From positions 13,392-77,391 of the forward strand of contig JAPLVH010000006.1 of NCBI GenBank assembly GCA_026397205.1: a DNA stretch of 64,000 nt, written 5' to 3'. The notes under the pieces are model-generated. The model saw only the letters and a list, made by a program, of their open reading frames with translations. It was not told where the DNA came from and ran no database searches. Below are positions 8,019-61,338 of this stretch, piece by piece (positions within the stretch are counted from its first letter, which is position 1; each line of letters begins with the position of its first letter). A program made the position numbers and the translations under genes. Source of the stretch: Candidatus Berkelbacteria bacterium. Lineage in GTDB: Bacteria; Patescibacteriota; UBA1384; XYA2-FULL-43-10; CAINNR01.

Positions 8019-8043
8019 AGTCGTAAGCTTGTAAGCTGTAAGC
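8019..8043. repeat. (TGTAAGC)n tandem heptamer tract just after the greA stop
   Basis: 'cgtaagcttgtaagctgtaagc'. The same heptamer occurs inside ksgA (21181-21203) and, reverse-complemented, in iscU (10701-10730). Confidence 0.5.
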
Positions 8044-8071
8044 AAAAAACCATCCGGAAAGGGTGGTTTTT
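8044..8071 (+). terminator. Rho-independent terminator of greA
   Basis: Stem AACCATCC / GGGTGGTT (one G-U pair), loop ggaaa, then TTTTT. Confidence 0.6.
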
Positions 8072-8296
8072 CGAAAGAAAAAAGACGCGAGTTACCGCGT
8101 CAAGGTTCGGGGTCTAGTTGTTGATAGTGGAGAAAGTAAATTGCGATTTTGGTTTCGAAACGCCGGCGGCAAATCCGGAAGCGAATTTCGTTTCATATTT
8201 CGGAAGTTATTGGTGTCTTTCAGCTTCATGTCAGCCCTCCGATAGTCAGAATCTATTTTTATCCTAGCAAAAAAATCCTTTTGGGGCAAGAGAAAA

Positions 8297-9550
8297 TCAG
8301 CTTTCGATTATTCCGCCGCCCAAAACTTCGTCCCACTTCGCCCGACCAAAGCGGGCTTCGCGGGACGGGCTTCGCCCGTAAATCACCGCCGACTGGCCGG
8401 GTGTAATTGCTCGTTGTGGCTCGGCGAATATGACTTTGATGTTGTCGCTAGATCCTTCGACAAGCTCAGGATGACTTGTGATTTTACAAGTCACTTCCGA
8501 ATGCCGGTATCTGATTTTAACTGAAAGATTTGAATTCTGAATTATGAATTCTGAATTGTGAATAAAATTTAAACTATTGACAATCATTTCTTTTTTGAAC
8601 ACTTCATTGTTGCCGCCAACAATCAACTGATTTTTTTCTTGATTAAATCCAACAACATAAAGCGGTTTTTTATCTTTGATTTTTGATTTGTCATTTTGAT
8701 TTTTGATTTTTGATTTTTGATCTATTAACTTTCTCTGTCCAATCGTATAATTTAGCAAACCTTGATGCTGACCGACAACATTGCCTTCGATATCGACAAT
8801 TTCGCCCGGCAGAAAAAACTTTTCTGGCAAATACCGGCGCAAAAAGTTGCGGTAATCTTTGTCGGCAAAAAAACAGATTTCCTGACTCTCCGGCTTCTCT
8901 TTGACTGGCAAATTATATTTGATCGCCAATTTTCGGACATCGATTTTTTTCATCTCGCCTAGCGGAAATAAAATTTTCGCCAACTGATTTTGATTCAGCC
9001 GGTAAAGCATATATGACTGGTCTTTGGTTTCGTCAACGCCTTTCAACAAATGATATTCCTTTTTACTTTTTGATTTATCATTTTGATCTTTGATTTTTGA
9101 TCTTTGATTTATTCTGGCATAGTGTCCCGTCGCCAATTTTTCGCAACCGATTGCCAATGCTTTTTTCAGAAGCAAATCAAATTTTATTTTTTCGTTACAG
9201 ATAATGCAGGGATTTGGCGTCCGCAAATTTTGATATTCGGTCAAAAAATAATCTACGACAGCTTTTTTGAACTCGCTTTTGGCGTTTATAACATAAAATG
9301 GAATGTTTAATTTCGCCGCTACCGCCCGGGCATCTTCCAGCGCCTGATAATCGCAACAGTGGTTGTCGCGCCGACAAGTTTTGCCATCCGGGAATAAGGG
9401 ACTTGTCCCGCGAAGTCCGCCTTGGGCAGACGAAGTGGGATCGCTCCACAATTTCAAAAACAGCCCGACCAAGTCGTGCCCGTAATCCTTTAGGATTTTT
9501 GCCGCCACGGCGGAATCAACACCACCGGACAGGGCAATTGCTAATTTCAT
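8297..9550 (-). CDS. mnmA: tRNA-specific 2-thiouridylase MnmA, carrying two in-frame heptamer-repeat insertions
   Basis: 'MKLAIALSGGVDSAVAA' PP-loop, catalytic Cys motifs, 417 aa. Inserted peptides 'KSKIKDQNDKSKSKKEY' and 'DQKSKIKNQNDKSKIKDKK' are encoded by (TGATTTT)n tracts. Confidence 0.85.
   Translation of the reverse strand: MKLAIALSGGVDSAVAAKILKDYGHDLVGLFLKLWSDPTSSAQGGLRGTSPLFPDGKTCRRDNHCCDYQALEDARAVAAKLNIPFYVINAKSEFKKAVVDYFLTEYQNLRTPNPCIICNEKIKFDLLLKKALAIGCEKLATGHYARINQRSKIKDQNDKSKSKKEYHLLKGVDETKDQSYMLYRLNQNQLAKILFPLGEMKKIDVRKLAIKYNLPVKEKPESQEICFFADKDYRNFLRRYLPEKFFLPGEIVDIEGNVVGQHQGLLNYTIGQRKLIDQKSKIKNQNDKSKIKDKKPLYVVGFNQEKNQLIVGGNNEVFKKEMIVNSLNFIHNSEFIIQNSNLSVKIRYRHSEVTCKITSHPELVEGSSDNIKVIFAEPQRAITPGQSAVIYGRSPSREARFGRAKWDEVLGGGIIES
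8670..8725. repeat. (TGATTTT)n heptamer tract, in frame inside mnmA
   Basis: 'tatctttgatttttgatttgtcattttgatttttgatttttgatttttgatc'. Confidence 0.7.
9061..9112. repeat. (TGATTTT)n heptamer tract, in frame inside mnmA
   Basis: 'ttttactttttgatttatcattttgatctttgatttttgatctttgattt'. Confidence 0.7.
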
Positions 9551-9651
9551 AATTGAGAGTTAAGAATTCAGAATGCAGAATGTAATTTAGAATTGAGAAT
9601 TTTTCAAAACAAAATCCCCTTCCGCAATTCTAAATTCTGAGATCTTAATTC

Positions 9652-10443
9652 TTAATTGTTTCTACTAAATAATTCATTCCTTCGGACCATCGCAACCAAA
9701 AGTTCGTGCAAAATCGGCGTTCGAAGCTGAGTTTTATACTCGGAAAGTGCTTGAAATTTTGTATCTTCCTCCGATTGACTTAAAGATAATTTCTGCCAGT
9801 TGTGGTTACCATTTGCTAATCGTTTTGGCGGCGTCAAAAATTTATCTTCATGCAAACCAATTGGTCGCGGGTAAAAAGTCGAATGAACCAAATATGAATA
9901 GCCGCTGGCATTTTGGTAATTTGGCAAAAGATTTTTGACTGTTTGACCGATAAATTTGTGATCAGGATTTTGATCCGACGAATCGGGGTAGATAATTATC
10001 GTTGGCGAAAAATTATCAATCTGATTTTTCAACATCGCCGATAAGTCAGCGGCGGAAACTTTTTTTGCCAGATAAAATTCCGGCTGATTCAAAAAAACCA
10101 GGTCGGATGATGATAATCCTAAAATTTCCGCTACTTTTTGAAACTCCGCCCGGCGCTCGGCACCTAAACCGCGACGATTACCATCGGTAACCAGAACGAC
10201 TTCGACTTTGGCGCCAAGATTTTTTGCTTTGACGATAGCTCCACCGGTGGCGATCGTTTCGTCATCCGGGTGTGGTGAAAAAACTAAAACTCGGTCGGAA
10301 CTTTTTATCTGAATCTCCGCCATATTTTCGATCGACGATTGCGGCAAAACCGAATAAAAATGACGATAAACTAGGTAACCGGCAAGTGCCAAAATAGCAA
10401 CGCTGAAAACAATCCAGAGAAATTTTTTAGAAAGAAATTTCAT
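9652..10443 (-). CDS. PIG-L/LmbE family N-acetylglucosaminyl deacetylase, with N-terminal TM anchor
   Basis: 'VFSPHPDDETIATGG' signature of the LmbE-like (PIG-L) family; 263 aa. Confidence 0.7.
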   Translation of the reverse strand: MKFLSKKFLWIVFSVAILALAGYLVYRHFYSVLPQSSIENMAEIQIKSSDRVLVFSPHPDDETIATGGAIVKAKNLGAKVEVVLVTDGNRRGLGAERRAEFQKVAEILGLSSSDLVFLNQPEFYLAKKVSAADLSAMLKNQIDNFSPTIIIYPDSSDQNPDHKFIGQTVKNLLPNYQNASGYSYLVHSTFYPRPIGLHEDKFLTPPKRLANGNHNWQKLSLSQSEEDTKFQALSEYKTQLRTPILHELLVAMVRRNELFSRNN

Positions 10444-10865
10444 TTTTTAAGTATCTTAAGTTGCTTAATTTTCTTCCGATAATCTTTTATCGCTTTCCTC
10501 ACCCCCTCTTCGGCCAAAATTGAGCAGTGGTATTTTGCCGGCGGGAATTTGCCCATCTCGGCGGCGATCTGTTTTGATGTTAGCTTTAACGCTTCTTCAA
10601 GTGATTTACCTTTCACTAGTTCGGTCGCAATAGACGACGAAGCAATCGCCGCCCCACAGCCCAAGGTTTGGAATTTGATGTCGGAAATGTATTCTTCTGG
10701 CTTACCGCTTACTAGCTTACGACTTACGACTTTTATAAAAATTCGCATAACATCCCCGCAATTCGGATTGCCGACAGTTCCGACGCCGTCGGCACCTTTA
10801 ATCTCACCGAGATTTCTCGGGTTTCGAAAATGCTCCATTATTTTTTCACTATATAAATTTTCCAT
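10440..10865 (-). CDS. iscU: Fe-S cluster assembly scaffold IscU/NifU-like, with an internal heptamer-derived insertion
   Basis: Three conserved Cys: 'NPNCGD', 'LGCGAA', 'YHCS'. Insert 'KVVSRKLVSGKP' is encoded by a (GCTTAC)-type tract at 10701-10730. Confidence 0.8.
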   Translation of the reverse strand: MENLYSEKIMEHFRNPRNLGEIKGADGVGTVGNPNCGDVMRIFIKVVSRKLVSGKPEEYISDIKFQTLGCGAAIASSSIATELVKGKSLEEALKLTSKQIAAEMGKFPPAKYHCSILAEEGVRKAIKDYRKKIKQLKILKK

Positions 10866-10903: not shown

Positions 10904-12142
10904 TTTCATCGGTGACATATTTCTAAGTTTTTCGACGATTTTTGGCATTACTTCCAATACCTTACCAATTTCCGCCTTGGTTGTCGAGCGGCCGAGGGTG
11001 AAACGAATCGAGCCGTGACACTGCTCTGGGTGCAAACCCATCGAAATCAGGACATGAGACGGCTCAAGCGAGCCGGAGGTGCAAGCCGAACCGGTCGAGG
11101 CGGCAATATTTTCCATATCAAGATTCAATAAAATTGATTCGCCTTCGGCATTCAAAAAAGAGATGTTGACATTCGCCGGCGACCGAAACTCCCGGCTACC
11201 GTTCAAAAATGAATTTGGAATTTTCAAAAGTCCATCGATTAATCCGTTTCTTAAATTTTCAATTCCATTTTTATTATTTATTATTTTTGATTTATTATTT
11301 AAAATTTCCACCGCTTTCCCAAACCCAACAATTCCCGCAACATTCTCCGTCCCGGCTCGCTTTTTATACTCCTGTCCGCCACCAACAATTTGCTGTTTGA
11401 TTTCGACCCCGTCGCGAAGATATAAAAGTCCGACACCTTTGGGTCCGTAAATTTTGTGTGCCGACAGCGTCAAAAGATCAACATGCAAATAGTCAACATT
11501 CATTTCAAAATACTCCGCCGCCTGCACCGCATCAGTGTGAAAAAAAATCCTACCGATATTTTGATCTTTGATCTTTGATTTTTGATTTTGTTTTTCAATC
11601 ATTTTCCCGATTTCCCGAATTGGCTGAACCGTTCCGATTTCGTTGTTGACATACATAATTGAAACCAATACTGTGTTTTTTTTGATTGCCGCCTCGACGT
11701 CGGCAACTTCGATAATTCCGTCGCGATTCGGCTTAACATATGTCGCTTCAATTTTCCCCTCTTCCTCCAACTCCTTGACCGACTGCAGCACCGCATGATG
11801 TTCAAACACACTGGTGATAATATGTGGTTTTTGGTTTTCTTTTTCTATTTTTACTCTGTCATTTTGCATTTTGATTTTTGATATTTGATTTTCTATAATT
11901 CCTCTTATCGCCAAATTGTCGGATTCCGATCCACCCGAAGTGAAAATAATTTCCTCCGTTTTGCAATTCAAAAACTCGGCAATTTTTCGCCGCGCTTCAT
12001 CAACGGCAAAACGCGCTTCCTGGCCGAGACCGTGAATCGAGGACGGATTTCCAAACTTATCGCTAAAATATGGCAGCATCTTTTTCAGCACATTATCATC
12101 CACCAAAGTCGTAGCCGCGTGATCTAAATATATTTTTTTCAT
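10901..12142 (-). CDS. iscS: Cysteine desulfurase IscS/NifS, with two in-frame heptamer insertions. The likely start is M at 12142; the tool ORF extends to 12166 through repeat sequence.
   Basis: 'MKKIYLDHAATT', PLP-Lys motif 'SAHKIYGPKGVGLLY', C-terminal catalytic Cys 'SACTSGS'. Inserts 'QNQKSKIKDQNIG' and 'ISKIKMQNDRVKIEKENQ'. Confidence 0.85.
   Translation of the reverse strand: MKKIYLDHAATTLVDDNVLKKMLPYFSDKFGNPSSIHGLGQEARFAVDEARRKIAEFLNCKTEEIIFTSGGSESDNLAIRGIIENQISKIKMQNDRVKIEKENQKPHIITSVFEHHAVLQSVKELEEEGKIEATYVKPNRDGIIEVADVEAAIKKNTVLVSIMYVNNEIGTVQPIREIGKMIEKQNQKSKIKDQNIGRIFFHTDAVQAAEYFEMNVDYLHVDLLTLSAHKIYGPKGVGLLYLRDGVEIKQQIVGGGQEYKKRAGTENVAGIVGFGKAVEILNNKSKIINNKNGIENLRNGLIDGLLKIPNSFLNGSREFRSPANVNISFLNAEGESILLNLDMENIAASTGSACTSGSLEPSHVLISMGLHPEQCHGSIRFTLGRSTTKAEIGKVLEVMPKIVEKLRNMSPMK
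11558..11598. repeat. (TGATYTT)n heptamer tract, in frame inside iscS
   Basis: 'ttttgatctttgatctttgatttttgattttg'. Confidence 0.7.
11848..11895. repeat. Heptamer tract (GTCATTTTGCATTTTGATTTTTGATATTTGATTTTC), in frame inside iscS
   Basis: Same arm sequence as in the complete elements at 12.2, 23.2 and 26.0 kb. Confidence 0.7.
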
Positions 12143-12300
12143 AAGAAATAAAAAATAAAAAATCAAATATTAAAATGATAAATCAAAATTCAAAAAGGAT
12201 TTCTGGAATCTTTTTCTTTTTTACTCCGTCATTTTGCATTTTGATTTTTTCTAGCTTCAGCTGACCCTGCGGGGATATTTGCATTTGCAATCCTTCGCAA
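12142..12300. repeat. Complete heptamer-array mini-element: left arm (AAAATCA-like)n, central unique segment, right arm (TGATTTT)n, plus a GATAGCTGACCCTGCGGGGA-type module. It overlaps the iscS 5' end and the 3' end of the Phd-like ORF.
   Basis: 'aaaaatcaaatattaaaatgataaatcaaaattcaaaaagg ... ccgtcattttgcattttgattttttctagcttcagctgaccctgcggggatatttgc'. Confidence 0.65.
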
Positions 12301-14775: not shown

Positions 14776-14831
14776 AAAAGTTCAAAATTAAAAGTGAAAA
14801 GTGAAAAATTATAATTTAAAACTTGAAAATA

Positions 14832-17971: not shown

Positions 17972-18748
17972 TTAATTCTCAATTACATTCTGAGATCTTA
18001 ATTTTGAATTCTTAATTATCACCACAAATTCGCCTTTTATTTTATGATTTTTTAGGCCAGAAATGATGTCGGCAATTTTGCCGCTCCAATATTCTTCAAA
18101 CTTTTTTGTCATTTCGCGGGCGATGAATATCTCTGTGTCGGCGGCAAAAAAAACTGATATATCTTTCAGTGTCCGCTCGATTCTCTGTGCCGATTCGTAG
18201 ATAACGACCGGACATTTTAGTGCCGATAATTCTTTCAGTTTTGTCTGCCGACCTTTTTTCTTCGGCAAAAAACCGGCAAAGTAAAATTCTTTGTCAACAA
18301 TTCCCGAAACACTAACCGCCGCCGTCAACGCCGACGGTCCGGGAATTGGAATGATTTGGATTTCATTTCCATCATTTTGACTTTTGATTTTTGATTTTTG
18401 AATTAATTTCTGTCCCGGATCAGAAATTCCCGGCGTGCCATTATCGCTGACATAAGCCGCATTTTCACCATCACTTATCCGCCGAATCACCATTTCAATT
18501 TTCTCCTCCGACGAATGCCGGTGAAGTGAGATCAACTCTTTTTTGATTCCCATGTGATGTAAAAGTCCACCGGCAACTCGAGTATCTTCGCAAACAACAA
18601 AATCAACGGCTGATAAAATCTCAATCGCTCGTTTCGTTATATCGCCCAAATTCCCAATCGGCGTCGCCACAATGTAGAGTATCCCCTGTTTCATCTTGAC
18701 AAAAGTGTAGCATTTTTTTTCAAAATATGATAGTATCTGGAAAGACAA
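17972..18748 (-). CDS. rsmI: 16S rRNA (cytidine1402-2'-O)-methyltransferase RsmI, with an in-frame heptamer insertion
   Basis: 'ILYIVATPIGNLGDIT...EDTR' tetrapyrrole-methylase-fold RsmI signature. Insert 'KSKIKSQNDGNE'. Confidence 0.8.
   Translation of the reverse strand: MSFQILSYFEKKCYTFVKMKQGILYIVATPIGNLGDITKRAIEILSAVDFVVCEDTRVAGGLLHHMGIKKELISLHRHSSEEKIEMVIRRISDGENAAYVSDNGTPGISDPGQKLIQKSKIKSQNDGNEIQIIPIPGPSALTAAVSVSGIVDKEFYFAGFLPKKKGRQTKLKELSALKCPVVIYESAQRIERTLKDISVFFAADTEIFIAREMTKKFEEYWSGKIADIISGLKNHKIKGEFVVIIKNSKLRSQNVIEN
18369..18404. repeat. (TGATTTT)n heptamer tract, in frame inside rsmI
   Basis: 'ccatcattttgacttttgatttttgatttttgaat'. Confidence 0.7.
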
Positions 18749-19164: not shown

Positions 19165-20667
19165 CTATTTCAGCCACTGTAAAATCATCATCAAAATTAG
19201 TGCCATCATGACTACGAAAGCAAACCAACCGCCGGCGTTTGACCAAAATTTATTTTTGTGTTCGCCCATAATTTCTTTTGAATTGGCGATTTTTAAGGTG
19301 ATGACGAGCAAAATCGGAACTAAAATTCCGGCGATAACTTGCGAATAGAGTAGCATTCGCATCGGGTCAATGCCGAAAAGCGCCACCAGTCCGGAGGCGA
19401 GGACGGAGAAAATTATGACAATGTAAAAACCGCGGGCCTCGGAAAATTTTCTGTCGAGTCCTTCGCGCCAGTGAAAAACATCGGAGATAACATAAGCCGA
19501 TGTCGCCGCCATCACCGGCAGAGCAATTAGCCCGGCGCCCAAAATCCCGATCGAAAACAGGGCAAAGGAGAAATTTCCGGCTAATGGTTTTAGCGCCAGC
19601 GCTGCCGATTGTGGCGAGGAGATAAAAACATTTTTGCCGGCGAAAACCGTCGCTGTCGCGACGATGATAAAAAACGAGATCATATTCGACCAAATCATTC
19701 CGGCGGTGACGCCGGTTTGGGTCTTGCCCAGATCCTTGACCCGAACATTCTCCTCGACTTCCTCGGTCGTCTGCCAGAAAAAATTGTAAGCTGAAAGCGT
19801 ACCACCAACCAAGGCGACCGCTACCAGCCACCAGTCATGACCAAATGATATTGAAGGCAAAAAAGTGCCGTGAAGAATCTGCATCCACGGCGGGTGCATC
19901 ATAAATGTTGAAACGACATAAGCCAGAAGTGCCAAAGTGACAACAAAAAGATAACGGCTGATAACGGCATAACCTTTGGTGACGAGAAAAATCGCAATCA
20001 AAAGTCCGATCGGCAGAATCAACCAAAACCAGCTGATGCCGAGAATCGTGCCTAAAATATTGGACATCGCCGCAATGTCGGCGCCGATGATGATAAAATT
20101 TGTAATTAAAATTGCCAGCGCCACCGGCACACCGACACGCATTCCAAATCTTTCGCTGATAATTCGGCCAAGTCCCTTTTTTGTCACAACACCGATTCTG
20201 GCGGTCATCTCTTCGATGGCGATCAACATCGGCGTCGAAATCAACAAAAGCCAGAGTTGCGAGAAGCCGGCAATTGCGCCGGACTGGGCGTAGGTGACGA
20301 CCGAACTGGGATCGTCATCGGCCGAACCGGTGATAACGCCCTTGCGTGAATAAAGAAAAAAATCCCGAATATTTCGACGTTTTTTATAGGGCAGGGAGAC
20401 AATCCGCCCAAGTTCGCCAGCAACTAATTTTGCGCTCTCCGACTCAACTTTAGCGGTAATTTTTGCTCCGCTGGCAACTTCTCGGCCAGCAAATTCAACC
20501 ACCTCTTTGCCGGCATTAGCTCCGCCGGCAATGACATCGTAAAAACCCTCTCCGACTTTCTCGACACCACTGCCAACCTGGCCGACATCACTGACAGCTC
20601 GCCTAACCTCGGGGATTTTTTCTTTGGCTGATTTTTCTTTCCCTATTTTTGAATTTTGATCTGTCAT
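19165..20667 (-). CDS. Nramp-family-like divalent metal cation transporter with an N-terminal soluble extension
   Basis: 'GSADDDPSSVVTYAQSGAIAGFSQLWLLL' resembles the Nramp 'DPGN...QAGA.FGY.LLW' motif. About 11 TM helices; 500 aa. Confidence 0.5.
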   Translation of the reverse strand: MTDQNSKIGKEKSAKEKIPEVRRAVSDVGQVGSGVEKVGEGFYDVIAGGANAGKEVVEFAGREVASGAKITAKVESESAKLVAGELGRIVSLPYKKRRNIRDFFLYSRKGVITGSADDDPSSVVTYAQSGAIAGFSQLWLLLISTPMLIAIEEMTARIGVVTKKGLGRIISERFGMRVGVPVALAILITNFIIIGADIAAMSNILGTILGISWFWLILPIGLLIAIFLVTKGYAVISRYLFVVTLALLAYVVSTFMMHPPWMQILHGTFLPSISFGHDWWLVAVALVGGTLSAYNFFWQTTEEVEENVRVKDLGKTQTGVTAGMIWSNMISFFIIVATATVFAGKNVFISSPQSAALALKPLAGNFSFALFSIGILGAGLIALPVMAATSAYVISDVFHWREGLDRKFSEARGFYIVIIFSVLASGLVALFGIDPMRMLLYSQVIAGILVPILLVITLKIANSKEIMGEHKNKFWSNAGGWFAFVVMMALILMMILQWLK

Positions 20668-20695
20668 TTTGATTTTTAATTTTTGATTTTTGAAT
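20647..20695. repeat. (TGATTTT)n heptamer tract spanning the 5' end of the transporter gene and the gap to ksgA
   Basis: 'tttgaattttgatctgtcattttgatttttaatttttgatttttgaattt'. Confidence 0.65.
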
Positions 20696-23107: not shown

Positions 23108-23110
23108 AGG

Positions 23111-23236
23111 ATTATTATATCAAATATCAAATATCAAAGATCAAAATGTTGGTCGGCACTCCGTGCTGAGATTTTTATATTCTTTTTACCTTTTTCATCT
23201 ATCATTTTGATTTTTGATATTTTATTTTTGATTTTT
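23111..23236. repeat. Complete heptamer-array mini-element (intergenic): (ATCAAAT/ATCAAAG)n arm, core TTGGTCGGCACTCCGTGCTGAGATTT, unique segment, inverted (TGATTTT)n arm
   Basis: 'tatcaaatatcaaatatcaaagatcaaaatgttggtcggcactccgtgctgagattttta...catctatcattttgatttttgatattttatttttgatttttcc'. Fills the whole gap between two minus-strand genes. Confidence 0.7.
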
Positions 23237-23238
23237 CC

Positions 23239-26073: not shown

Positions 26074-26090
26074 TCCGATTTGACTTATTG

Positions 26091-26586: not shown

Positions 26587-26619
26587 AAAATTCCAAATTT
26601 CTAATTTCTAATTTCAAAA

Positions 26620-54915: not shown

Positions 54916-56096
54916 TTGGATTTTATCCTTTCATTTGACATTTGTAATTTGGCATTTGAAATTATTTTCATTTCCTCGGCGGCGATTGCCTGCCAGCTAT
55001 ATTTTTTTACCACACTTCTACCCCGAGATGCAAGTTTAGCCAAAGATTTTTGATTTTTTAAGAGCGAGGAGATTTTTTCGGCAAAATTTTTCCTCTCGCC
55101 GATTCCCGCCGTCACAACCGCACCGGCAAAAACTTCGGCGTAAACCGGCAAATTCCAAGCGACGACCGGAACGCCGGCGGCAAACGCTTCAGCGATCGCA
55201 ATGCCAAAACCCTCTTCGTGGCTGGGAAAAATAAACAGCTCCGATGATTTTAGAATTTTGTAGGCCACTTCATCCGGCAAAAAACCGAGAATTTCGATGT
55301 TTTTTTTAAGGCCGAGATTCTCGAATTCTTTTCGCAGTTGATCTTTTATCGCCTGACTCCCGCCGCCGATAATTTTTAGTTTGGCGTCAGAATTTTTGGC
55401 AACGACTTCCCGCCAAATCTCCGGCAGATCAAATATTCCTTTTGACGGAACCAGCCGAGCCAAAAAACAAGCTTGGTTTTTATTTTTTTTCGCTTTGATC
55501 TTTTCAAAATATTTCATATCAATGCCGCACGGATTTACGCCAATTTTATTTTTTTCGAGATGATACTTGTGAATTAGTTCTTCTCGAACTTGATAATTGA
55601 TGTTAACGATTTTGTCGGCCCGGCGCTGAATCAATTTTAGACAACGGTTTTGGGAAACGCCGGCAAAGAAATTGATAATTTTATTGCCCGGTCGTTTTCG
55701 CCAGTTTGGATACAGATGGAAAATGCACTGAACCCAAATCGCCGACGGATTTTTACTTTTATATTTCGTCGCCGGCAAAACCTCGGTGATAAAATCCGAA
55801 CCGCAATAAATAATATCGTAATTTTTTTTGACAATTTCTCGCTTCACCCAACGGCTACGCCAAAAATAGGCCGGAAAAATTCCAAAGCGATCAAATTTTT
55901 TCGGCGCAACAATAAAGTTAGCACTCGGAAGACCGCTGGCCATTGACTTCTTTCCGTCAGTCGAAGTCCAGACATCAACTTGAAAATTTTTGCCGATTCG
56001 ATTGAAAATCTTAATCAGCCGCTGGTCACCGCCGCTCATGCCGGCACCAGAAACCCAAAAAGAATTAAGTAATAAAGCAATTTTTGGTTTTTCCAT
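54912..56096 (-). CDS. GT4 family (GT-B) glycosyltransferase
   Basis: 'ELFIFPSHEEGFGIAIAEAFAAGVPVVAWN' is the canonical GT4 EX7E region. Confidence 0.75.
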   Translation of the reverse strand: MEKPKIALLLNSFWVSGAGMSGGDQRLIKIFNRIGKNFQVDVWTSTDGKKSMASGLPSANFIVAPKKFDRFGIFPAYFWRSRWVKREIVKKNYDIIYCGSDFITEVLPATKYKSKNPSAIWVQCIFHLYPNWRKRPGNKIINFFAGVSQNRCLKLIQRRADKIVNINYQVREELIHKYHLEKNKIGVNPCGIDMKYFEKIKAKKNKNQACFLARLVPSKGIFDLPEIWREVVAKNSDAKLKIIGGGSQAIKDQLRKEFENLGLKKNIEILGFLPDEVAYKILKSSELFIFPSHEEGFGIAIAEAFAAGVPVVAWNLPVYAEVFAGAVVTAGIGERKNFAEKISSLLKNQKSLAKLASRGRSVVKKYSWQAIAAEEMKIISNAKLQMSNERIKSK

Positions 56097-58095: not shown

Positions 58096-59706
58096 TGTCT
58101 TTTTTTTCGAAAAATCGGTCAGGTGGCCAAGCAATTTCCCGCCGGCACGCCAGAGAAATTTTAAATCATCAGCACTTCGGATGCCACCGATTTTTCGAAA
58201 AATGAATTTCGGTGTCATAAATGACTTATAAAGTCCTTGTGTCAACTCTTTTATGTCCGACTCCGACAACTCCGATTTCATTATGATTTTCCGCTGGTCG
58301 TAATCGTCCCAATTTTTCGTTGTCAGCCAGCCGTTTTTTTGGCACTCTTTAAATAGTGGCGTGCCGGGATAAGGAATAACGATTGTCGCCTGCAAAGTAT
58401 CAACAAAACCCGAGTCAAATAATTTCTTCGACAAAGCGATCGTTCGTTTCGCGTCTTCCAAACTCTCCCACGGATAGCCCATCATTGTCGTAATGTGCGG
58501 CTCGAGTCCAGCCTTTTTCGCCATCCGAACCCCTTTTTCAATTTCGGCGACGCGCAAATTTTTATTAATATGATCGAGAGTTTTCTGATTTGCCGACTCT
58601 AGCCCATACAAAATAAAGCGAAAACCGGCTTTGCCCATTAAATTATATTCTTCTTGCGACAGGGCTTTCAACCGCATATTGCAATCAATTTTGATCTTTT
58701 TGTTGTAGCCGCGAGAAATCATCCCGTCGCAAAATTCTTCAAGCCACGGCCCAATCGGAAACGAGCCGGCGTCGTCCATAACTTCTTTAACTTTATATTT
58801 GTGGATCAGAATTCCGATTTCGTCCAACATTCGCTTGGCCGAATGTTTGCGGTAATCCTTGCCGGGGTAAAGCGTCGTCCAGGAGCAAAATGTGCACTTT
58901 CCCCACCAACAGTCGCGAGCGGAAAAAGTGTAAGTTCCCGGCGTTCGTTTGTAGTTGCCGTTTTTATAGGCGTATAGTTTCCACTTGGTTAAATCCCGAT
59001 CAATCATCGGCAGCTCGTCCAAAATATGATTTAATTCGAAATGTCCGGTATTTTCGAACAGATCCCCTTCCTTCATTTTTCTTGCGATAGCTGACCCTGT
59101 GGGGATCTTTGATTTTTGATCTTTGATTTTTCTAAACCAGATTCCTGCCTCCAATTTTTCTCCGTGATTGATATGGTTCGCAATATTCAGTGCCAAAAAA
59201 TCCCAATCGCCACCGGTGGCGATAAAATCAACCTTTGAATTTTTCATTGACTCCTCCGGCATCGCCGTCACATGATCGCCAACCAAAACGACTTTTACCG
59301 CCGGCATTTCCTTTTTTATCACATCGATGACTTTCCAGTGGCGCTTGACAACCGGTGTTTTGGTTTCAAAGATGATGAGATCGGGACGAAATTTTTTGAT
59401 GCGATCGAGCCAAATTTCCGGCAACAATTCTTCGGCAATGCCATCATCCCACAAGACATCAAATCCTTGCAACTGTAAAAGCGTCGCGACGTAAGCCGGC
59501 ACCATCGGATAAATGTAGGTCGGATTCTTAAACCATTGAAACTGGCGATTCTGCCCAAGACACGGCGTTCCCTTTTTACTCGGCATCGGCGGATAGGAAA
59601 TTGCGATTTTGAATTTTTTATTTTTCTCCAAATGTTCTTTTGTCGGTTTTGAAATGTGTTTAATCGCCATAAGATTTTCATAAAAATAAATATTGAGTTT
59701 CATCAC
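58093..59706 (-). CDS. B12-binding-domain radical SAM protein (class B rSAM), with an in-frame mini-element insertion
   Basis: N-terminal cobalamin-binding-like domain. Cys cluster 'CWWGKCTFC' (CX4CX2C spacing). Insert 'KIKDQKSKIPTGSAIARKMKEG'. Confidence 0.55.
   Translation of the reverse strand: MMKLNIYFYENLMAIKHISKPTKEHLEKNKKFKIAISYPPMPSKKGTPCLGQNRQFQWFKNPTYIYPMVPAYVATLLQLQGFDVLWDDGIAEELLPEIWLDRIKKFRPDLIIFETKTPVVKRHWKVIDVIKKEMPAVKVVLVGDHVTAMPEESMKNSKVDFIATGGDWDFLALNIANHINHGEKLEAGIWFRKIKDQKSKIPTGSAIARKMKEGDLFENTGHFELNHILDELPMIDRDLTKWKLYAYKNGNYKRTPGTYTFSARDCWWGKCTFCSWTTLYPGKDYRKHSAKRMLDEIGILIHKYKVKEVMDDAGSFPIGPWLEEFCDGMISRGYNKKIKIDCNMRLKALSQEEYNLMGKAGFRFILYGLESANQKTLDHINKNLRVAEIEKGVRMAKKAGLEPHITTMMGYPWESLEDAKRTIALSKKLFDSGFVDTLQATIVIPYPGTPLFKECQKNGWLTTKNWDDYDQRKIIMKSELSESDIKELTQGLYKSFMTPKFIFRKIGGIRSADDLKFLWRAGGKLLGHLTDFSKKKT
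59083..59131. repeat. Mini-element fragment (GATAGCTGACCCTGTGGGGA + (TGATYTT)n), in frame inside the rSAM gene
   Basis: 'cttgcgatagctgaccctgtggggatctttgatttttgatctttgattttt'. Confidence 0.7.
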
Positions 59707-59770: not shown

Positions 59771-59998
59771 TTATTTGATTTTATCGAGATCTTTTTTGTC
59801 GAGTTCGGCGAATTTCAAAATATTATTAAGAGTTCCAGGCTTGATAAACTTGTGATTCGGAACAATCAAAACTTTCTTCCGGCCGTTAGTTTTTTCAAGT
59901 TTGATGTGGCTGCCTTTTTGCCCAACAATTTTGAAACCAAAACCAACCAAAACTTTGAGCAATGTTTTGGCCGAAATTTGTGAGTACTTGGCGATCAT
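59771..59998 (-). CDS. hicA: HicA-family mRNA interferase toxin
   Basis: 75 aa. 'LLKVLVGFGFKIVGQKGSHIKLEK...VLIVPNHKFIKPGTLNNILKFAEL' fits the HicA/YcfA pattern (GSH, P.H). Confidence 0.7.
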   Translation of the reverse strand: MIAKYSQISAKTLLKVLVGFGFKIVGQKGSHIKLEKTNGRKKVLIVPNHKFIKPGTLNNILKFAELDKKDLDKIK

Positions 59999-60208
59999 TT
60001 AACAAACTTTCAATTTTAGTGGCACGACAAATTCTCTTTTGCTTTTTGGCAAGGGATTTTTTCCCAAATACAAATTCACCGCTTCGGAAATGTTGCACAT
60101 CGCTTCTTCAAAAGTTTCTCCTTGGGAAAAACAACCAGGAAGCGACGGAACCGAAACGGAAAAACCGCCGTCATTCTCTTCTTGCATTAGAACAAAGATT
60201 TCTTTCAT
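59999..60208 (-). CDS. hicB: HicB-family antitoxin (UPF0150, RNase-H-like fold without a DNA-binding extension)
   Basis: 69 aa. 'GGFSVSVPSLPGCFSQGETFEEAMCNISEAVNLYL' matches the HicB N-domain pattern. Its stop abuts the hicA start. Confidence 0.6.
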   Translation of the reverse strand: MKEIFVLMQEENDGGFSVSVPSLPGCFSQGETFEEAMCNISEAVNLYLGKNPLPKSKREFVVPLKLKVC

Positions 60209-60246
60209 GATTTTATTTTACCACCAGATTTTTTGATTGTAAATAC

Positions 60247-61224
60247 TTATCGTTCCAATTTCCGAACCGTCAGTCCTTGGACAAAACGAATTCCATACCA
60301 AATGTGAGTTAGAAAGATCATTGGAATTGTTAGAATACCAATAAGCGGATTTTTGTGACGGAGGGAAATGATGACGGCATCAAATAAAAGTCCTAATCCG
60401 TAAGCAATAAGCGGTAAGAAAAACAAAATTCGAAATTCGAAATTCGAAATTCGAAACAATATCGAAAATAAGAAAATTAAATACAAAACAAATAAAGTCG
60501 GGATAAAGTAGCCGATTTTCAAAGATGTCTGCGGATATTTTTTGGCAAAAAAGCCGCGGTGGAGTGCATAGTTTCCGATTTGTTTGAAATGCTTTAAGAG
60601 ATTGGCGCGACGATGGTGGTAGACAATACCGGCCGGGTCATAAATAATTTTGTAGCCGGCACTTACAATGTCGAGACAAAGTTTTGTGTCCTCGCCCGGC
60701 CAATACTGGCAATCAAATCCGCCGACTTCCTTAAAAACATCGCGCCAGATCAGCAAACTGACCGTCGGCCAGTCGTCGCAAGTTCGACGATTTCCGATTG
60801 GTAGATAACGGTTGCGGGTGAAACCGCCACCGAGATACGACTCGAAAATCGCGCCGGAAACTTTTTGCAAAACGCCGTTTGATGACGGCGTCACTGCTGG
60901 ACAACCGACGGCGCCAACTTCAGATTTGCGAAAATTGGGAATCATCTTTTTTAGCCAGTCGCGGCGCGGATAGGCATCATCATCTAAAAAAGCCAGGACT
61001 TTCCCACGGGCAAATTTCAGCGCCAAATCACGCTTTTCTGCCGGTCCGATCTTGCCAGAAGCGATGATTTTTGTTTTTGGCCAGCGGTGAATTTCATCCG
61101 GTCGGTCGGGAAATATTAAAACCTCAAACTCCGGCCAATCGAGTTTCAGAATATGCTCCATTGATTCGTAAATGTAGTCGTTGATCTTTTTAACCGGAAT
61201 GATAATTGAAACTTTGGGTTTCAT
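60247..61224 (-). CDS. GT2 family glycosyltransferase with a C-terminal TM region
   Basis: 'KVSIIIPVKKINDYI...LAFLDDDAYP' DXD motif. Three C-terminal hydrophobic helices. Confidence 0.65.
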   Translation of the reverse strand: MKPKVSIIIPVKKINDYIYESMEHILKLDWPEFEVLIFPDRPDEIHRWPKTKIIASGKIGPAEKRDLALKFARGKVLAFLDDDAYPRRDWLKKMIPNFRKSEVGAVGCPAVTPSSNGVLQKVSGAIFESYLGGGFTRNRYLPIGNRRTCDDWPTVSLLIWRDVFKEVGGFDCQYWPGEDTKLCLDIVSAGYKIIYDPAGIVYHHRRANLLKHFKQIGNYALHRGFFAKKYPQTSLKIGYFIPTLFVLYLIFLFSILFRISNFEFRILFFLPLIAYGLGLLFDAVIISLRHKNPLIGILTIPMIFLTHIWYGIRFVQGLTVRKLER

Positions 61225-61338
61225 AAATCAAAAATTAAATATCAAAGATCAAAATGTTGGTCGGCACTCCGTGCCGGGATTTATTCTTTTTCATCTTTTT
61301 TATTTATCATTTTAATTTTTGATATTTGATTTTTGCTT
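61225..61338. repeat. Complete heptamer-array mini-element filling the intergenic gap: (ATCAAAA)n arm, core TTGGTCGGCACTCCGTGCCGGGATTT, inverted (TGATTTT)n arm
   Basis: 'aaatcaaaaattaaatatcaaagatcaaaatgttggtcggcactccgtgccgggatttattctttttcatcttttttatttatcattttaatttttgatatttgatttttgc'. Confidence 0.7.

What the first reader, a model, noticed from the sequence alone, without database searches (positions are those of the whole stretch)
8019..61338. A family of modular mini-elements built from tandem heptamer arrays, inserted in frame into essential genes and filling intergenic gaps
The window holds about 20 copies or fragments of a modular element. Complete copies lie at 12142-12300, 23111-23236, 25969-26073 and 61225-61338.

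A complete copy has this architecture:
- a left arm of (ATCAAAA/ATCAAAT)n heptamers;
- a conserved hairpin core, ATG-TTGGTCGGCACTCCGTGCCGGGATTT;
- a short unique segment;
- a right arm of (TGATTTT)n, the left-arm heptamer inverted.

Other modules combine with these arms: GATAGCTGACCCTGCGGGGA (12258, 21262, 59083, variant 35283), the core in reverse orientation (AGCCACGGAGTGGCT at 24108 and 25003), and alternative heptamers (GTTTGTA)n, (TGTAAGC)n and (CCGACTG)n.

Fragments of one to two arms sit inside the coding sequence of mnmA (twice), iscS (twice), iscU, rsmI, ksgA (twice), the uvrD/pcrA helicase (twice, composite), the B12-rSAM gene and the UPF0104-PHP gene. Every insert is a multiple of 3 nt; three heptamers make 21 nt, or 7 codons. 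They translate into recurring hydrophilic loops such as KSKIKNQND, STNYKLQTT and GSHSVAG. At those positions the proteins are longer than what I recall of orthologues from other bacteria.

This is the behaviour described for Rickettsia palindromic elements (RPE) and, partly, for Neisseria Correia elements. The sequence family and the use of heptamer arrays as inverted termini look distinct from both. I do not recognise it as a described element.
Basis: partly seen in the sequence, partly recalled or inferred. Interest (0 to 1): 0.9.

Follow-up and report, generated by a model that had tools for sequence, protein, structure and literature searches.

The report
Heptamer-repeat mini-elements inside Berkelbacteria genes
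This stretch of a Candidatus Berkelbacteria (CPR) genome is peppered with short selfish-looking repeats, built from 7-base tandem arrays plus small GC-rich modules, that fill intergenic gaps and sit in frame as extra floppy loops in housekeeping proteins; the behaviour is known from Rickettsia and cyanobacteria, but I found no report of it in this lineage or in this form.

Summary
Period-7 tandem arrays are hugely over-represented: 17 exact arrays against 0.15 in shuffles, and no other period is enriched. Seventeen of 30 tracts lie inside intact ORFs, including mnmA, iscS, iscU, rsmI, ksgA, uvrD and a rSAM gene. Two GC-rich modules recur next to the arrays. One is a 15-nt hairpin with a YCC loop (5 copies; the stem covaries, also in two other genomes). 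The other is a 24-nt unstructured module, M1 (4 copies), always nested in heptamer phase.

Five intergenic copies are 105-150-nt MITE-like palindromes whose arms are inverted heptamer arrays. The in-gene inserts are absent from solved homologues and from the nearest relatives. They fall at hypervariable loops, and the two uvrD composites have low pLDDT. They always lie in the stop-free orientation, so they are probably translated.

Related genomes (uvrD-based kinship) carry other heptamers at the same loops. 968 kb from other bacteria has none.

Corrections: the core has 3 forward copies, not 4, and 12142-12300 is not a complete copy.

Best reading: a lineage-specific, non-autonomous repeat system that behaves like RPEs and resembles cyanobacterial STRR/SDR repeats. 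Its mobility mechanism is unknown. It is a new variant of a known kind.

The parts
3108..3257 (.). Intergenic palindromic element between mreB and mreC. Its arms are inverted heptamer arrays, (CTCTAAA)~4 and (TTTAGAG)~4.
   Evidence: Sequence; TRF rows 3111-3137 and 3239-3270. RNA fold z = -4.9, with 0 of 200 shuffles as stable.
8019..8043 (+). (GTAAGCT)~3 array just after the greA stop, followed by a terminator-like hairpin read from the sequence at about 8044-8072.
8528..8565 (-). In-frame (GAATTCA)n array in mnmA, translated as FIHNSEFIIQNSN.
   Evidence: The region aligns poorly and with gaps to solved MnmA.
8666..8730 (-). In-frame arm plus (ATCAAAA)4 array in mnmA, translated as IDQKSKIKNQNDKSKIKDKK. 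About 8 residues are extra relative to solved MnmA.
   Evidence: Independent contigs end inside this array.
9053..9112 (-). In-frame arm plus (ATCAAAG/A)n array in mnmA, translated as NQRSKIKDQNDKSKSKKEY. About 11 residues are extra.
9551..9657 (.). Intergenic palindromic element between the mnmA start and the PIG-L-family gene stop. Arms are (AATTSAG)n and (AATTCTN)n.
   Evidence: Sequence. Fold z = -4.3.
10716..10732 (-). (GTCGTAA)2.4 array in iscU, encoding VVSRK inside a 9-residue extra loop. The locus L085 orthologue has (GTCGAAA)3 at the same site.
11268..11301 (-). AT-rich heptamer tract in iscS (NNKSKIINNKN). About 5 residues are extra relative to the L085 orthologue.
11557..11595 (-). 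(ATCAAAG/A)4 array in iscS (KQNQKSKIKDQNI). 6-10 residues are extra.
   Evidence: Reproduced in the independent contig L001.
11837..11896 (-). Arm plus array in iscS (ENQISKIKMQNDRVKIEKE). 12-15 residues are extra. It is 90% identical over 39 nt to the intergenic copy at 12211-12249.
   Evidence: (family D3).
12143..12300 (.). Composite intergenic segment upstream of iscS. It contains an A-rich array, an arm (12211-12249), the 24-nt module M1 (12250-12273) and a (TTTGCA-type) tract. It is not a palindromic 'complete copy' and has no hairpin core.
   Evidence: (z = -1.2).
14776..14830 (.). Intergenic (AAAAGTG/AAAAGTT) heptamer tract upstream of the EamA gene.
   Evidence: No significant fold.
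18361..18406 (-). Arm plus (ATCAAAA/GTCAAAA)4 array in rsmI (QKSKIKSQNDGNE). L085 has no insert at this site; L086 has an unrelated insert there.
20645..20701 (-). Arm plus array spanning the ksgA stop (20676) and the Nramp start (20667). It supplies the ksgA C-terminal NSKIKN and the Nramp N-terminus.
   Evidence: In relatives these two genes overlap instead.
21172..21208 (-). (CAGCTTA)3.7 array in ksgA (SAYSLQLTAYDY), in a variable loop.
21228..21314 (-). Composite insert in ksgA: arm, then M1 (21263-21286), then (GATATTT)3. Translated as NQISNIKNPRRVSYRKKNDKVKIK. About 13 residues are absent from four relatives.
23108..23238 (.). Complete palindromic element that exactly fills the uvrD-stop to G5-gene-start gap. 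Layout: (ATCAAAT)n, ATG, hairpin core (23154-23168), T-rich degenerate tract, (TTTTGAT)n.
   Evidence: Fold z = -3.7.
24066..24171 (-). Composite insert at UvrD hot spot 2: (ATCAAAA)4, ATGATGGT, hairpin AGCCAC-TCC-GTGGCT (24115-24129), spacer, (CTACAAA)4. Translated as NQKSKIKNQNDGSHSVARFLDLSTNYKLQTTSF.
   Evidence: pLDDT is below 50 at residues 380-403.
24942..25062 (-). Composite insert at UvrD hot spot 1: (ATCAAAA)4, the same hairpin (25006-25020), a unique spacer, (CTACAAA)2.5. Translated as NQKSKIKNQNDGSHSVAGLSVDSHLHWNDEENSTNYK.
   Evidence: pLDDT is below 50 at residues 80-110. It is 97% identical over 58 nt to the hot spot 2 copy (family D4).
25615..25830 (.). Intergenic heptamer-phased tracts ((AATTTCT)n, ATTTGAC/ATTTGTA/ATTAGGA) arranged as a ~135-nt direct repeat upstream of uvrD.
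   Evidence: (families D12, D17, D18).
25960..26080 (.). Complete palindromic element with hairpin core (25991-26005) in the divergent intergenic region.
   Evidence: Fold z = -3.5 (+ strand) and -4.8 (- strand).
26586..26621 (.). (AATTTCT)n tract filling the gap between two + strand ORFs.
31241..31283 (-). Heptamer-phased tract (ATTTGGA/ATTAGAA/ATTTGTA) inside ORF 31098-33293.
   Evidence: family D8.
31539..31578 (-). (ATTTGAA/ATTTGTA)n tract inside ORF 31098-33293 (YKISNDKLQISNE).
35252..35312 (-). (CCGACTG)3.3 array interrupted in phase by M1 (35280-35303) in the LPG-synthase/PHP gene.
54926..54975 (-). Heptamer-phased tract (ATTTGAC/ATTTGTA/ATTTGGC) forming the C-terminal tail of the GT4 gene, next to the start of the following gene.
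   Evidence: families D8, D18.
59073..59132 (-). Arm end, then M1 (59080-59103), then (GATCTTT/GATTTTT)4, in the B12-binding radical SAM gene. It is 93% identical over 57 nt to the ksgA copy.
   Evidence: (family D14).
60418..60461 (-). (AAATTCG)4.4 array in a GT2 gene (RISNFEFRI). The same unit forms the UvrD hot spot 1 inserts of L083 and L085.
61225..61338 (.). Complete palindromic element that exactly fills the gap between two - strand genes. Its hairpin core CGGCAC-TCC-GTGCCG lies at 61262-61276.
   Evidence: Fold z = -6.5.

Best explanation
The window comes from a Candidatus Berkelbacteria (CPR/Patescibacteria) genome. It is colonised by a lineage-specific, non-autonomous, modular repeat system with three layers.

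(1) Heptamer microsatellite arrays. The dominant unit is ATCAAAA/TTTTGAT, alongside ACTACAA, CAGCTTA, CAGTCGG, AAATTCG, AATTTCT, TCTAAAN and others. They have a conserved boundary (..GTCATTTT|GAT..). They expand, contract and homogenise by slipped-strand mispairing.

(2) MITE-like palindromes of 105-150 nt. Their terminal inverted repeats are inverted heptamer arrays. They survive only between genes.

(3) Very small modules nested inside the arrays. One is a 15-nt GC hairpin with a YCC loop. The other is a 24-nt unstructured module, M1, inserted at a fixed position and in heptamer phase, just 5' of GA.

Copies spread between loci by an unidentified trans-acting mechanism and/or by ectopic gene conversion between arrays. 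Purifying selection then keeps only harmless copies. These are intergenic spacers and, inside genes, stop-free half-elements whose length is a multiple of 3. Such copies land in permissive surface loops and are translated as hydrophilic, disordered K/N/Q/S-rich peptides.

Shown here: the enrichment, the modularity, dispersal of near-identical composite copies, nesting of M1, hairpin covariation, lineage restriction, the loop positions and the orientation filter.

Inferred: translation of the inserts, slippage as the cause of homogenisation, the mode of mobility, and neutrality.
For: Enrichment specific to period 7.

The GC-rich cores recur against about 0 expected.

Dispersal of composite, non-low-complexity copies between unrelated genes:
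- ksgA versus the rSAM gene, 93% over 57 nt.
- uvrD hot spot 1 versus hot spot 2, 97% over 58 nt.
- iscS interior versus its upstream spacer, 90% over 39 nt (all).

M1 is nested:
- All four copies are exactly 24 nt and continue the flanking array in phase. Three sit at TTTT|GAT and one at CC|GACTG in a different array type.
- Deleting M1 in silico restores the canonical arm found M1-free at 8684, 11852 and 26030 (31 of 35 nt).

The hairpin is under structural constraint:
- Seven copies, including two from other genomes (L005 and L007) at different uvrD positions.
- 97.6% of cells are paired.
- 3 of 6 pairs show compensatory changes.
- Covariation score is 0.571 against 0.164 in shuffles, with 0 of 500 shuffles reaching it.
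- Slid controls give 21-33% paired.

Five intergenic palindromes fold with z between -3.5 and -6.5.

The inserts are extra relative to solved homologues. They are also extra relative to syntenic relatives at 62-75% protein identity.

UvrD hot spots carry different heptamer or hairpin inserts in each related genome.

AlphaFold gives pLDDT below 50 exactly over the two UvrD inserts.

Orientation filter: for TTTTGAT, TTGTAGT, TAAGCTG, TGAATTC, ATTTGAA and M1, only the observed sense orientation is open.

Concerted evolution of orthologous arrays: IscU has GTCGTAA against GTCGAAA, and UvrD hot spot 2 has ATCAAAA against GTCAAAA.

Lineage restriction: 0.9-3.7 arrays per 10 kb in the window and 7 of the 80 fetched uvrD loci. 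Six of these are CPR loci, five among the eight closest relatives. 968 kb of the remaining loci have none.

Shared unit repertoire: AATTTCT is found in 5 genomes, ATCAAAA in 3 and AAATTCG in 3.
Against: - No target-site duplication can be read, because the array ends are fuzzy.
- No transposase or HUH/RAYT gene was found among the 50 window ORFs scanned with Pfam.
- No truly empty orthologous site is available at the nucleotide level, because the nearest relatives are only 63-75% identical in protein.
- The hairpin family has only 7 copies and 3 stem types.
- Exact-pattern scans of public genome, metagenome and viral collections found no further copies. Copy number and spread outside this genome are therefore unknown.
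- Some in-gene arrays are ancient and shared with relatives, which fits in-situ persistence as well as insertion.
- No copy-number polymorphism was seen in 7 read-set assemblies, so ongoing slippage is not demonstrated.
- Translation of the inserts is inferred from open frames only.
Confidence: 0.65

Rival explanations
1. Pure in-situ microsatellite genesis. AT-rich loop-coding and intergenic DNA in this lineage spontaneously generates heptamer arrays through a polymerase slippage bias. Nothing moves, and similar units arise convergently.
For: - Heptanucleotide repeats are reported as the most abundant long simple-sequence-repeat class in many bacteria, and were attributed to polymerase slippage (as summarised in PMC4679880, and PMC4692102).
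- There are 58 distinct units among 84 arrays.
- Orthologous arrays persist and homogenise in place, as in IscU and UvrD hot spot 2.
- No transposase is found in the window.
Against: - It cannot explain the GC-rich, non-repetitive modules M1 and the hairpin recurring with conserved flanks at unrelated loci and in other genomes.
- It cannot explain the conserved arm boundary and T-rich sub-terminal tract shared by about 10 copies (families D2 and D3).
- It cannot explain M1 filled-versus-empty arms.
- It cannot explain the same rare units recurring in up to 5 genomes.
Confidence: 0.15
2. The elements are primarily functional and host-selected. Intergenic palindromes would act as terminators, mRNA-stabilising or processing hairpins, or protein-binding sites. 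In-gene copies would provide selected disordered linkers or regulatory pause/attenuation signals.
For: - Three elements exactly fill stop-to-start gaps in operons.
- The hairpins score as terminator-like, including in the sense strand inside uvrD.
- The hairpin stem covaries.
- Some arrays have been retained across species for a long time.
- CspB-type proteins bind heptamer repeats (PMC4679880).
Against: - The same sequences occur in coding and non-coding contexts, and in both orientations relative to transcription. The hairpin loop reads UCC in uvrD mRNA but GGA in the two operon spacers.
- Close relatives lack the inserts in the same proteins.
- The inserts are predicted to be disordered and lie at variable loops.
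- Unit identity turns over between species at the same site.
Confidence: 0.12
3. The in-gene segments are intervening sequences removed before or after translation (intron-like or intein-like), so the mature proteins are not longer.
For: None directly. CPR genomes are known, from my own knowledge of Brown et al. 2015, to carry unusual insertions in rRNA genes.
Against: - All 17 in-gene tracts keep the frame and avoid stop codons. They occur only in the stop-free orientation. This constraint is unnecessary if they were spliced from RNA.
- There is no Rfam intron or any other RNA family hit.
- The peptides have no intein motifs and are only 5-40 residues long.
Confidence: 0.03
4. Assembly or chimera artefact of a metagenome-assembled genome.
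For: Low-complexity repeats are a classic source of misassembly, and Logan contigs break at the arrays.
Against: - Ten contigs from 7 independent read sets match at 99.9-100% and contain the arrays they span.
- The ORFs remain intact.
- Relatives from other studies show the same phenomenon at the same protein loops.
Confidence: 0.01

Closest known systems
Rickettsia palindromic elements (RPE; Ogata et al. 2000, as summarised in PMC10969869)
   Same: Both are short (~100-150 bp) palindromic selfish repeats in a reduced genome. They are found in intergenic DNA and also inserted in frame into many unrelated housekeeping genes. They encode recurrent peptides that are tolerated in surface loops.
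   Different: - There is no evident sequence relationship.
- The termini here are tandem heptamer arrays.
- In-gene copies here are usually half or rearranged elements, because one arm (TTTTGAT) is closed in all frames. RPEs are inserted whole.
- Small modules are nested in the arrays.
- The host lineage is CPR, not Rickettsiales.
Cyanobacterial STRR heptamer arrays with nested small dispersed repeats (SDR; Mazel 1990 and Elhai 2008, recalled from memory; titles confirmed)
   Same: - Both show genome-wide tandem heptanucleotide arrays of several unit types.
- Both have very small (21-27 nt) dispersed modules, some of them hairpins, inserted within the arrays. M1 here is 24 nt.
- Arrays are tolerated inside a functional gene: STRR sequences occur in the RNase P RNA gene (title cited).
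- No transposase is known for either.
   Different: - The phylum differs. SDRs were reported as restricted to Nostocaceae (PMC5861425).
- The units and module sequences differ.
- Here many arrays lie in frame in protein-coding genes, and inverted arrays act as MITE-like arms.
- I could not read the primary SDR paper, so the finer points are untested.
Prokaryotic MITEs in general (e.g. Coxiella QMITE1/2, Correia/CREE, ERIC, BOX)
   Same: The elements are under 500 bp, AT-rich, have terminal inverted repeats of about 25-30 nt, give stable stem-loop transcripts, occur in multiple copies and occasionally form in-frame fusions (PMC10969869; PMC5896051).
   Different: - The TIRs are microsatellite arrays rather than unique sequence.
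- No target-site duplication is discernible.
- No parent insertion sequence is known.
- The frequency of in-gene copies is much higher than for most MITEs.
TAACTGA heptamer direct repeats of marine Beggiatoaceae and cyanobacteria (PMC4679880)
   Same: Both involve tandem heptamers of 2-6 copies concentrated in intergenic DNA next to start codons. Orientation within ORFs is limited by stop codons in one orientation. The origin is unknown.
   Different: That system has a single favoured unit, is essentially intergenic, and has no nested modules or palindromic arrangement.
REP/REPIN elements mobilised by RAYT (PMC3116915)
   Same: Both have a short GC-rich hairpin with a covarying stem, dispersed in many copies.
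   Different: REPs are extragenic, occur as inverted doublets and are linked to a RAYT gene. No RAYT gene is seen here, the hairpins also sit inside genes, and they are tied to heptamer arrays.

Membership tests
[quoted passage not shown] | Length under 500 bp, AT-rich, multiple copies | tested here: met
   Five intergenic palindromes of 105-150 nt and about 20 further partial copies. The definition is taken from PMC10969869.
[quoted passage not shown] | Terminal inverted repeats of about 4-30 bp, giving a stable stem-loop | tested here: met
   The arms of inverted heptamer arrays pair over about 25-30 nt. z ranges from -3.5 to -6.5.
[quoted passage not shown] | Flanking target-site duplication | tested here: inconclusive
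   The flanks of the three ATCAAAW-armed copies show no clear direct repeat. The array ends are ill-defined.
[quoted passage not shown] | A parent insertion sequence or transposase sharing the TIRs | tested here: not met
   No transposase domain was found in the 50 window ORFs scanned. The rest of the genome is not available.
Rickettsia palindromic elements (RPE) | In-frame insertion into unrelated housekeeping ORFs, encoding conserved peptides | tested here: met
   Seventeen in-ORF tracts. The (N)QKSKIK(N/D)QND motif recurs in MnmA, IscS, RsmI and UvrD, with related forms in KsgA and the rSAM protein.
Rickettsia palindromic elements (RPE) | Insert lies at a surface or permissive position of the host protein | tested here: met
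   The inserts fall at alignment gaps relative to solved structures. They coincide with hypervariable columns in 19 UvrD orthologues. pLDDT is below 50 over both UvrD inserts.
Rickettsia palindromic elements (RPE) | Sequence homology to RPE-1 to RPE-10, and a Rickettsiales host | tested here: not met
   The host is Candidatus Berkelbacteria.
Cyanobacterial STRR / SDR system | Tandem heptanucleotide arrays of several unit types dispersed in the genome | tested here: met
Cyanobacterial STRR / SDR system | Modules of 21-27 nt nested within the arrays, with filled and empty sites | tested here: met
   M1 is 24 nt, has 4 copies, is in phase in two array types, and its removal restores the canonical arm. 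The SDR size range is recalled from memory.
Cyanobacterial STRR / SDR system | Nostocaceae host and STRR/SDR consensus sequences | tested here: not met
   The host is a CPR bacterium. SDRs are reported only in Nostocaceae (PMC5861425). The units here differ from the STRR units as I recall them.
REP / REPIN-RAYT | Extragenic GC-rich hairpins linked to a RAYT (Y1 HUH) gene | tested here: not met
   The hairpins also occur inside uvrD. No Y1 transposase was found among the window ORFs.
Contingency-locus microsatellite (phase variation) | Copy-number polymorphism that switches the frame between cells or strains | tested here: not met
   Arrays covered by independent assemblies from 7 read sets are identical. 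The hosts are essential housekeeping genes. Read-level data were not available.
Rfam-described RNA family | Match to a curated covariance model | tested here: not met
   There are no hits at gathering thresholds anywhere in the window.

The most novel reading that the evidence does not exclude
The 24-nt M1 module and the 15-nt YCC-loop hairpin would be genuinely mobile 'nano-elements' that specifically target heptamer microsatellites in phase, 5' of GA, without TIRs or a dedicated transposase. This would be the same still-unexplained biology as the Nostoc SDRs, now in a phylum-level unrelated, tiny-genome CPR lineage.

That would imply a general and undiscovered mechanism, for example one acting on ssDNA hairpins or replication forks, or one mediated by RNA. 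Such a mechanism would both create heptamer arrays and move modules between them. It would continually remodel protein loops in Berkelbacteria.
Probability: 0.25. Interest if true: 0.8.

Novelty: new variant of a known kind. Interest (0 to 1): 0.62.

Why it matters
CPR bacteria have some of the smallest and most streamlined genomes known, yet here about ten housekeeping genes in 64 kb tolerate selfish repeats as extra loops. That is a second, independent natural experiment alongside Rickettsia RPEs on how repeat DNA creates new disordered protein segments.

The heptamer-array plus nested-module architecture links CPR to the unexplained STRR/SDR repeats of cyanobacteria and the heptamer repeats of Beggiatoaceae. 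It hints at a shared mechanism behind 7-nt periodic repeats.

There are practical consequences too. These elements break short-read assemblies: contigs end inside the arrays. They inflate protein lengths and can mislead orthology, domain and structure annotation in CPR MAGs. They could also serve as strain markers.

Tried and rejected
- An exact-pattern scan of 185,579 species genomes for hairpin plus arm gave 0 hits.
- A JGI metagenome scan with the stem left unconstrained gave 6 hits. All were chance matches, with no stem complementarity and no heptamers, in line with my own rough estimate of the chance rate.
- IMG/VR scans for the hairpin and for M1 gave 0 hits and 10 chance hits respectively.
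- A protein-level census with the insert peptide failed: the first query was below the 40-aa minimum, and the second found no candidates sharing words.
- Rfam and tRNA scans of the window were empty.
- M1 was tested as a hairpin and rejected, with fold z close to 0.
- 12142-12300 as a fourth complete palindrome was rejected.
- The terminator function of the intergenic hairpins was left open. The T-tract follows the stem on the strand antisense to the flanking genes in two of three copies.
- I looked for copy-number polymorphism between independent assemblies and found none.
- The primary SDR and STRR papers (Elhai 2008, Vioque 1997) are not in the held library, so the comparison with them rests partly on memory.
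- One Pfam batch failed on a wrong start coordinate and was not repeated.

Full report
**Origin and gene content**

The UvrD/PcrA protein encoded at 23239-25284 (- strand) is 100% identical to an NCBI protein from 'MAG: Candidatus Berkelbacteria bacterium' on an 82-kb contig. Its next relatives, at 62-66% identity, are other Berkelbacteria or unlabelled CPR proteins.

- mnmA, 8297-9550
- iscU, 10440-10865
- iscS, 10901-12142
- rsmI, 17972-18748
- Nramp, 19165-20667
- ksgA, 20676-21554
- uvrD
- an LPG-synthase/PHP fusion, 34596-36245
- a B12-binding radical SAM gene, 58093-59706

The rest of the window holds mreB, mreC, PBP2 and greA, plus a long glycosyltransferase/methyltransferase cluster. 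No transposase domain was found in the 50 ORFs scanned. There are no tRNA or Rfam hits.

Yes. Exact tandem arrays of at least 17 nt number 17 for period 7, against 0.15 in shuffles. Periods 8-12 give 0-1. In 28-nt sliding windows with at least 85% lag identity, period 7 gives 112 windows, periods 5, 6, 8 and 10 give 0, and period 9 gives 2. Tandem Repeats Finder lists dozens of period-7 rows.

I count 30 period-7 tracts. Seventeen lie wholly inside ORFs. Thirteen are intergenic or straddle gene ends, although about 90% of the window is coding.

The GC-rich cores recur far beyond chance:
- The 26-nt core occurs 3 times against 0 expected.
- GCTGACCCTGCGGGGA occurs 4 times against 0.12 expected.
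- AGCCACGGAGTGGCT occurs twice exactly, both inside uvrD.

The sequence is not an assembly artefact. Ten short contigs assembled independently from seven read sets match the window at 99.9-100%, including the arrays they fully span. Several end exactly inside multi-copy arrays, at 8707-8720 and 12237-12240, as expected for real genomic repeats.

- Only three 'complete' copies carry the hairpin core. The segment 12142-12300 lacks it, carries the 24-nt module instead, and does not fold as a palindrome (z = -1.2).
- Module coordinates are off by a few bases.
- There are more in-gene copies than listed.
- The 'unique segment' is a conserved, degenerate T-rich heptamer tract shared by about ten copies (family D2).

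**Anatomy**

(a) Arrays. The dominant unit is TTTTGAT on the + strand, which reads ATCAAAA in the sense of the - strand host genes. Arrays start at a conserved boundary..(G/A)TCATTTT|GATTTTTGAT.. (families D3 and D6).

(b) Intergenic palindromes. Three elements (23108-23238, about 25960-26080, 61225-61338) have this layout: (ATCAAAW)n, ATG, hairpin, a T-rich degenerate tract, then (TTTTGAT)n. They fold into long hairpins with z of -3.7, -3.5/-4.8 and -6.5. Two more palindromes use other heptamers as arms. One lies at 3108-3257 (CTCTAAA/TTTAGAG, z = -4.9). The other lies at 9551-9657 (AATTSAG/AATTCTN, z = -4.3). Inverted heptamer arrays as termini are therefore a general architecture here, not a quirk of one family. 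Three of the five exactly fill stop-to-start gaps.

(c) The hairpin module. It is a 6-bp stem with a YCC loop, preceded by ATCAAAATG-N-Y-GG-N and followed by GGAYT. There are five copies in the window. One more lies in each of two other CPR genomes: L005 at UvrD hot spot 2, and L007 at another uvrD position.

In the 7-sequence alignment, 97.6% of stem cells pair and 3 of 6 pairs carry compensatory double changes. The stem types are CGGCAC/GTGCCG, AGCCAC/GTGGCT and GGCCTC/GAGGCC. The covariation score is 0.571 against 0.164 in shuffles, with 0 of 500 shuffles reaching it. Slid controls give 21-33% pairing. This is a small sample with only three stem types, but the constraint on pairing is clear.

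(d) Module M1, TCTTGCGATAGCTGACCCTGCGGG. All four copies (12250, 21263, 35280, 59080) are exactly 24 nt and interrupt a heptamer array in phase. Three sit at TTTT|GAT. One sits at CC|GACTG inside a (CCGACTG)n array. Deleting M1 in silico regenerates the canonical arm that exists M1-free at 8684, 11852 and 26030, matching 31 of 35 nt. This amounts to a filled-versus-empty comparison among paralogous sites. Because M1 also sits in an unrelated array type, homology-driven gene conversion alone cannot explain it. M1 has no significant secondary structure.

**Are the in-gene copies extra, and where do they sit?**

Compared with solved structures:
- MnmA has about 11 and about 8 extra residues at the two ATCAAAA sites.
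- IscS has 15, 10 and 2 extra residues.
- KsgA has about 13 extra residues at the arm+M1 site. Its (CAGCTTA)n array occupies an existing variable loop.
- IscU has a 9-residue extra loop.

I recovered syntenic loci from relatives, with the gene order uvrD, G5, ksgA, Nramp, rsmI ... iscS, iscU. The ksgA, rsmI and iscS inserts are absent from these orthologues at 62-75% identity.

In a 19-sequence UvrD alignment the two composite inserts fall in hypervariable columns flanked by invariant motifs. An AlphaFold2 model has a modest overall mean pLDDT of 70.6. It gives pLDDT below 50 and no secondary structure at residues 80-110 and 380-403, which are exactly the two inserts.

**Orientation and frame**

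For TTTTGAT, TTGTAGT, TAAGCTG, TGAATTC and ATTTGAA the + strand reading hits a stop in all three frames, while the sense reading is open in all three. M1 is open in all three frames only in the observed orientation. The IscU unit has a stop every 21 nt in the sense orientation, and the array is correspondingly limited to 2.4 copies.

This explains two things. All in-gene copies share one orientation. Full palindromes, which have one closed arm, are found only between genes. It also argues that the inserts are translated: RNA splicing would not require open frames.

**Lineage context**

Of the 80 uvrD loci fetched from one-genome-per-species collections, the window and seven loci have 0.9-3.7 exact period-7 arrays per 10 kb. 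Six of the seven are CPR loci, and five of those are among the eight closest relatives. The top-ranked relative has none. The seventh is a Chromatiales locus with 1.4 per 10 kb. A few other loci have one or two arrays, and the remaining 968 kb has none.

Note that several of these related MAGs carry automated 'Saccharibacteria' labels. Their kinship to the window is inferred from UvrD similarity only.

At UvrD hot spot 1 the heptamer-rich relatives carry different repeat inserts:
- (AAATTCG)n ... (CGAATTT)n palindromes in L083 and L085
- (ATCAGTW)n(AACSGAC)n in L086
- (GGAGTCA)n plus a hairpin in L006
- period-8 arrays in L004 and L005

At hot spot 2 the window has (ATCAAAA)4 plus the hairpin. 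L083 has (GTCAAAA)4 in the same frame. L005 has (AATCATG)4 plus the same hairpin. Closer relatives have nothing there. IscU carries orthologous arrays whose units differ by one base in every repeat, GTCGTAA against GTCGAAA.

So arrays can persist and homogenise (concerted evolution), and permissive loops are colonised repeatedly. A limited unit repertoire is shared between genomes: AATTTCT in 5, ATCAAAA in 3 and AAATTCG in 3, out of 58 distinct units in 84 arrays.

**Mechanism**

The best-supported account is a non-autonomous repeat system with three layers:
1. Heptamer arrays maintained by slippage.
2. MITE-like palindromes with array arms.
3. Nano-modules nested in the arrays.

These are filtered by selection down to harmless sites. 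What is shown and what is inferred are separated in the Best explanation section.

Several things are not shown. I found no target-site duplication, no partner transposase and no polymorphism. Exact-pattern scans of public genome, metagenome and viral collections found no further copies.

A regulatory role for the intergenic hairpins remains possible. They score as terminator-like, and one does so even on the sense strand inside uvrD. However, the orientation relative to transcription is inconsistent between copies, so I rank exaptation as secondary.

**Comparison with known systems**

In behaviour this is closest to Rickettsia palindromic elements: in-frame selfish repeats in housekeeping genes (PMC10969869). 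In architecture it is closest to cyanobacterial STRR heptamer arrays with nested 21-27-nt SDR modules. That comparison draws on Elhai 2008, which I recalled from memory because the paper is not held. Supporting points:
- SDRs are reported as restricted to Nostocaceae in PMC5861425.
- STRR sequences occur inside the RNase P RNA gene, according to the title cited.

The system also meets the size, TIR and stem-loop criteria of MITEs, but not the target-site-duplication or parent-IS criteria. It shares the stop-codon orientation logic of the Beggiatoaceae TAACTGA repeats (PMC4679880).

Literature searches for CPR, Patescibacteria or Berkelbacteria together with heptamers, tandem repeats, palindromic elements or in-frame insertions found no description.

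I therefore rate it as a new variant of a known kind. It is real and of moderate-to-high interest, with an unresolved mobility mechanism.

Noticed in passing
window 4081-4111, 10446-10469, 10882-10905, 13903-13935, 25282-25323, 58074-58097: A 9-nt periodic motif, (CTTAAGNNN)2-4, lies 2-40 nt upstream of the start codons of at least six genes on both strands. CTTAAGTGACTTA with up to 3 mismatches gives 38 matches against 10.8 expected. At 10446-10469 it also encodes the IscU C-terminal tail KQLKILKK. It is not Shine-Dalgarno-like. It could be a translation-initiation or regulator site, or another repeat family.
   Followed up: partly
L086:20131-20871 (RsmI) and protein P0065 (UvrD, alignment A1 columns 530-600): Relatives carry other kinds of in-frame repeat-derived inserts at the same loops. 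Examples are CHPEFISGSNNEIPKQVRND in RsmI of L086 and VIPAEAGIQETPHGSPG... in a Berkelbacteria UvrD. They resemble translations of GC-rich palindromic repeats seen in many uncultured bacteria.
   Followed up: no
L004 and L005, UvrD hot spot 1: Period-8 arrays, (AACAATCG)~3.7 and (ACGAATCA)~3, occupy the same loop. Three units make 24 nt, or 8 codons. Period 7 is therefore dominant but not exclusive in the lineage.
   Followed up: partly
L029:12375-13109 (MAG labelled Chromatiales, GC 0.59): Four long heptamer arrays sit next to uvrD in an unrelated gammaproteobacterial MAG: (TCAATGA)n, (ATTTGCG)n, (CGATTTC)n and (TCATTGT)n. They form inverted arrangements reminiscent of the Beggiatoaceae-type heptamer repeats.
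   Followed up: no
window 25615-25830: A ~135-nt direct repeat made of heptamer-phased AT-rich tracts, each copy containing TTGACA, lies in the 830-nt uvrD upstream region. A perfect TTGACA-18-TATAAT promoter-like site is at 25907-25878 on the - strand.
   Followed up: no
window 24114-24130 and 25006-25020 (- strand): The hairpin module inside uvrD is followed in the sense strand by a T-rich run (TAGCCACTCCGTGGCTA GATTTTTGGA). It scores as an intrinsic-terminator-like site within the coding region, so it could act as an internal attenuator.
   Followed up: partly
L094-L096 ends (window 8707-8720); L098-L099 ends (window 12237-12240): Logan short-read contigs from independent samples terminate exactly inside TTTTGAT arrays. 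These repeats fragment short-read assemblies of this organism.
   Followed up: yes
window 20665-20678: In this genome the repeat element separates ksgA and Nramp and supplies the ksgA stop and the Nramp ATG. The arm boundary ATCAAAATGA contains an ATG. In relatives the two genes overlap by about 30 nt.
   Followed up: partly
window 30391-61224: A ~30-kb run of glycosyltransferase, methyltransferase, aminotransferase, UbiA and PMT_2 genes, all on the - strand, probably forms a cell-envelope glycosylation cluster. Large ORFs without Pfam hits lie within it at 48204-49616 and 49613-52399, and one lies beside it at 31098-33293.
   Followed up: no
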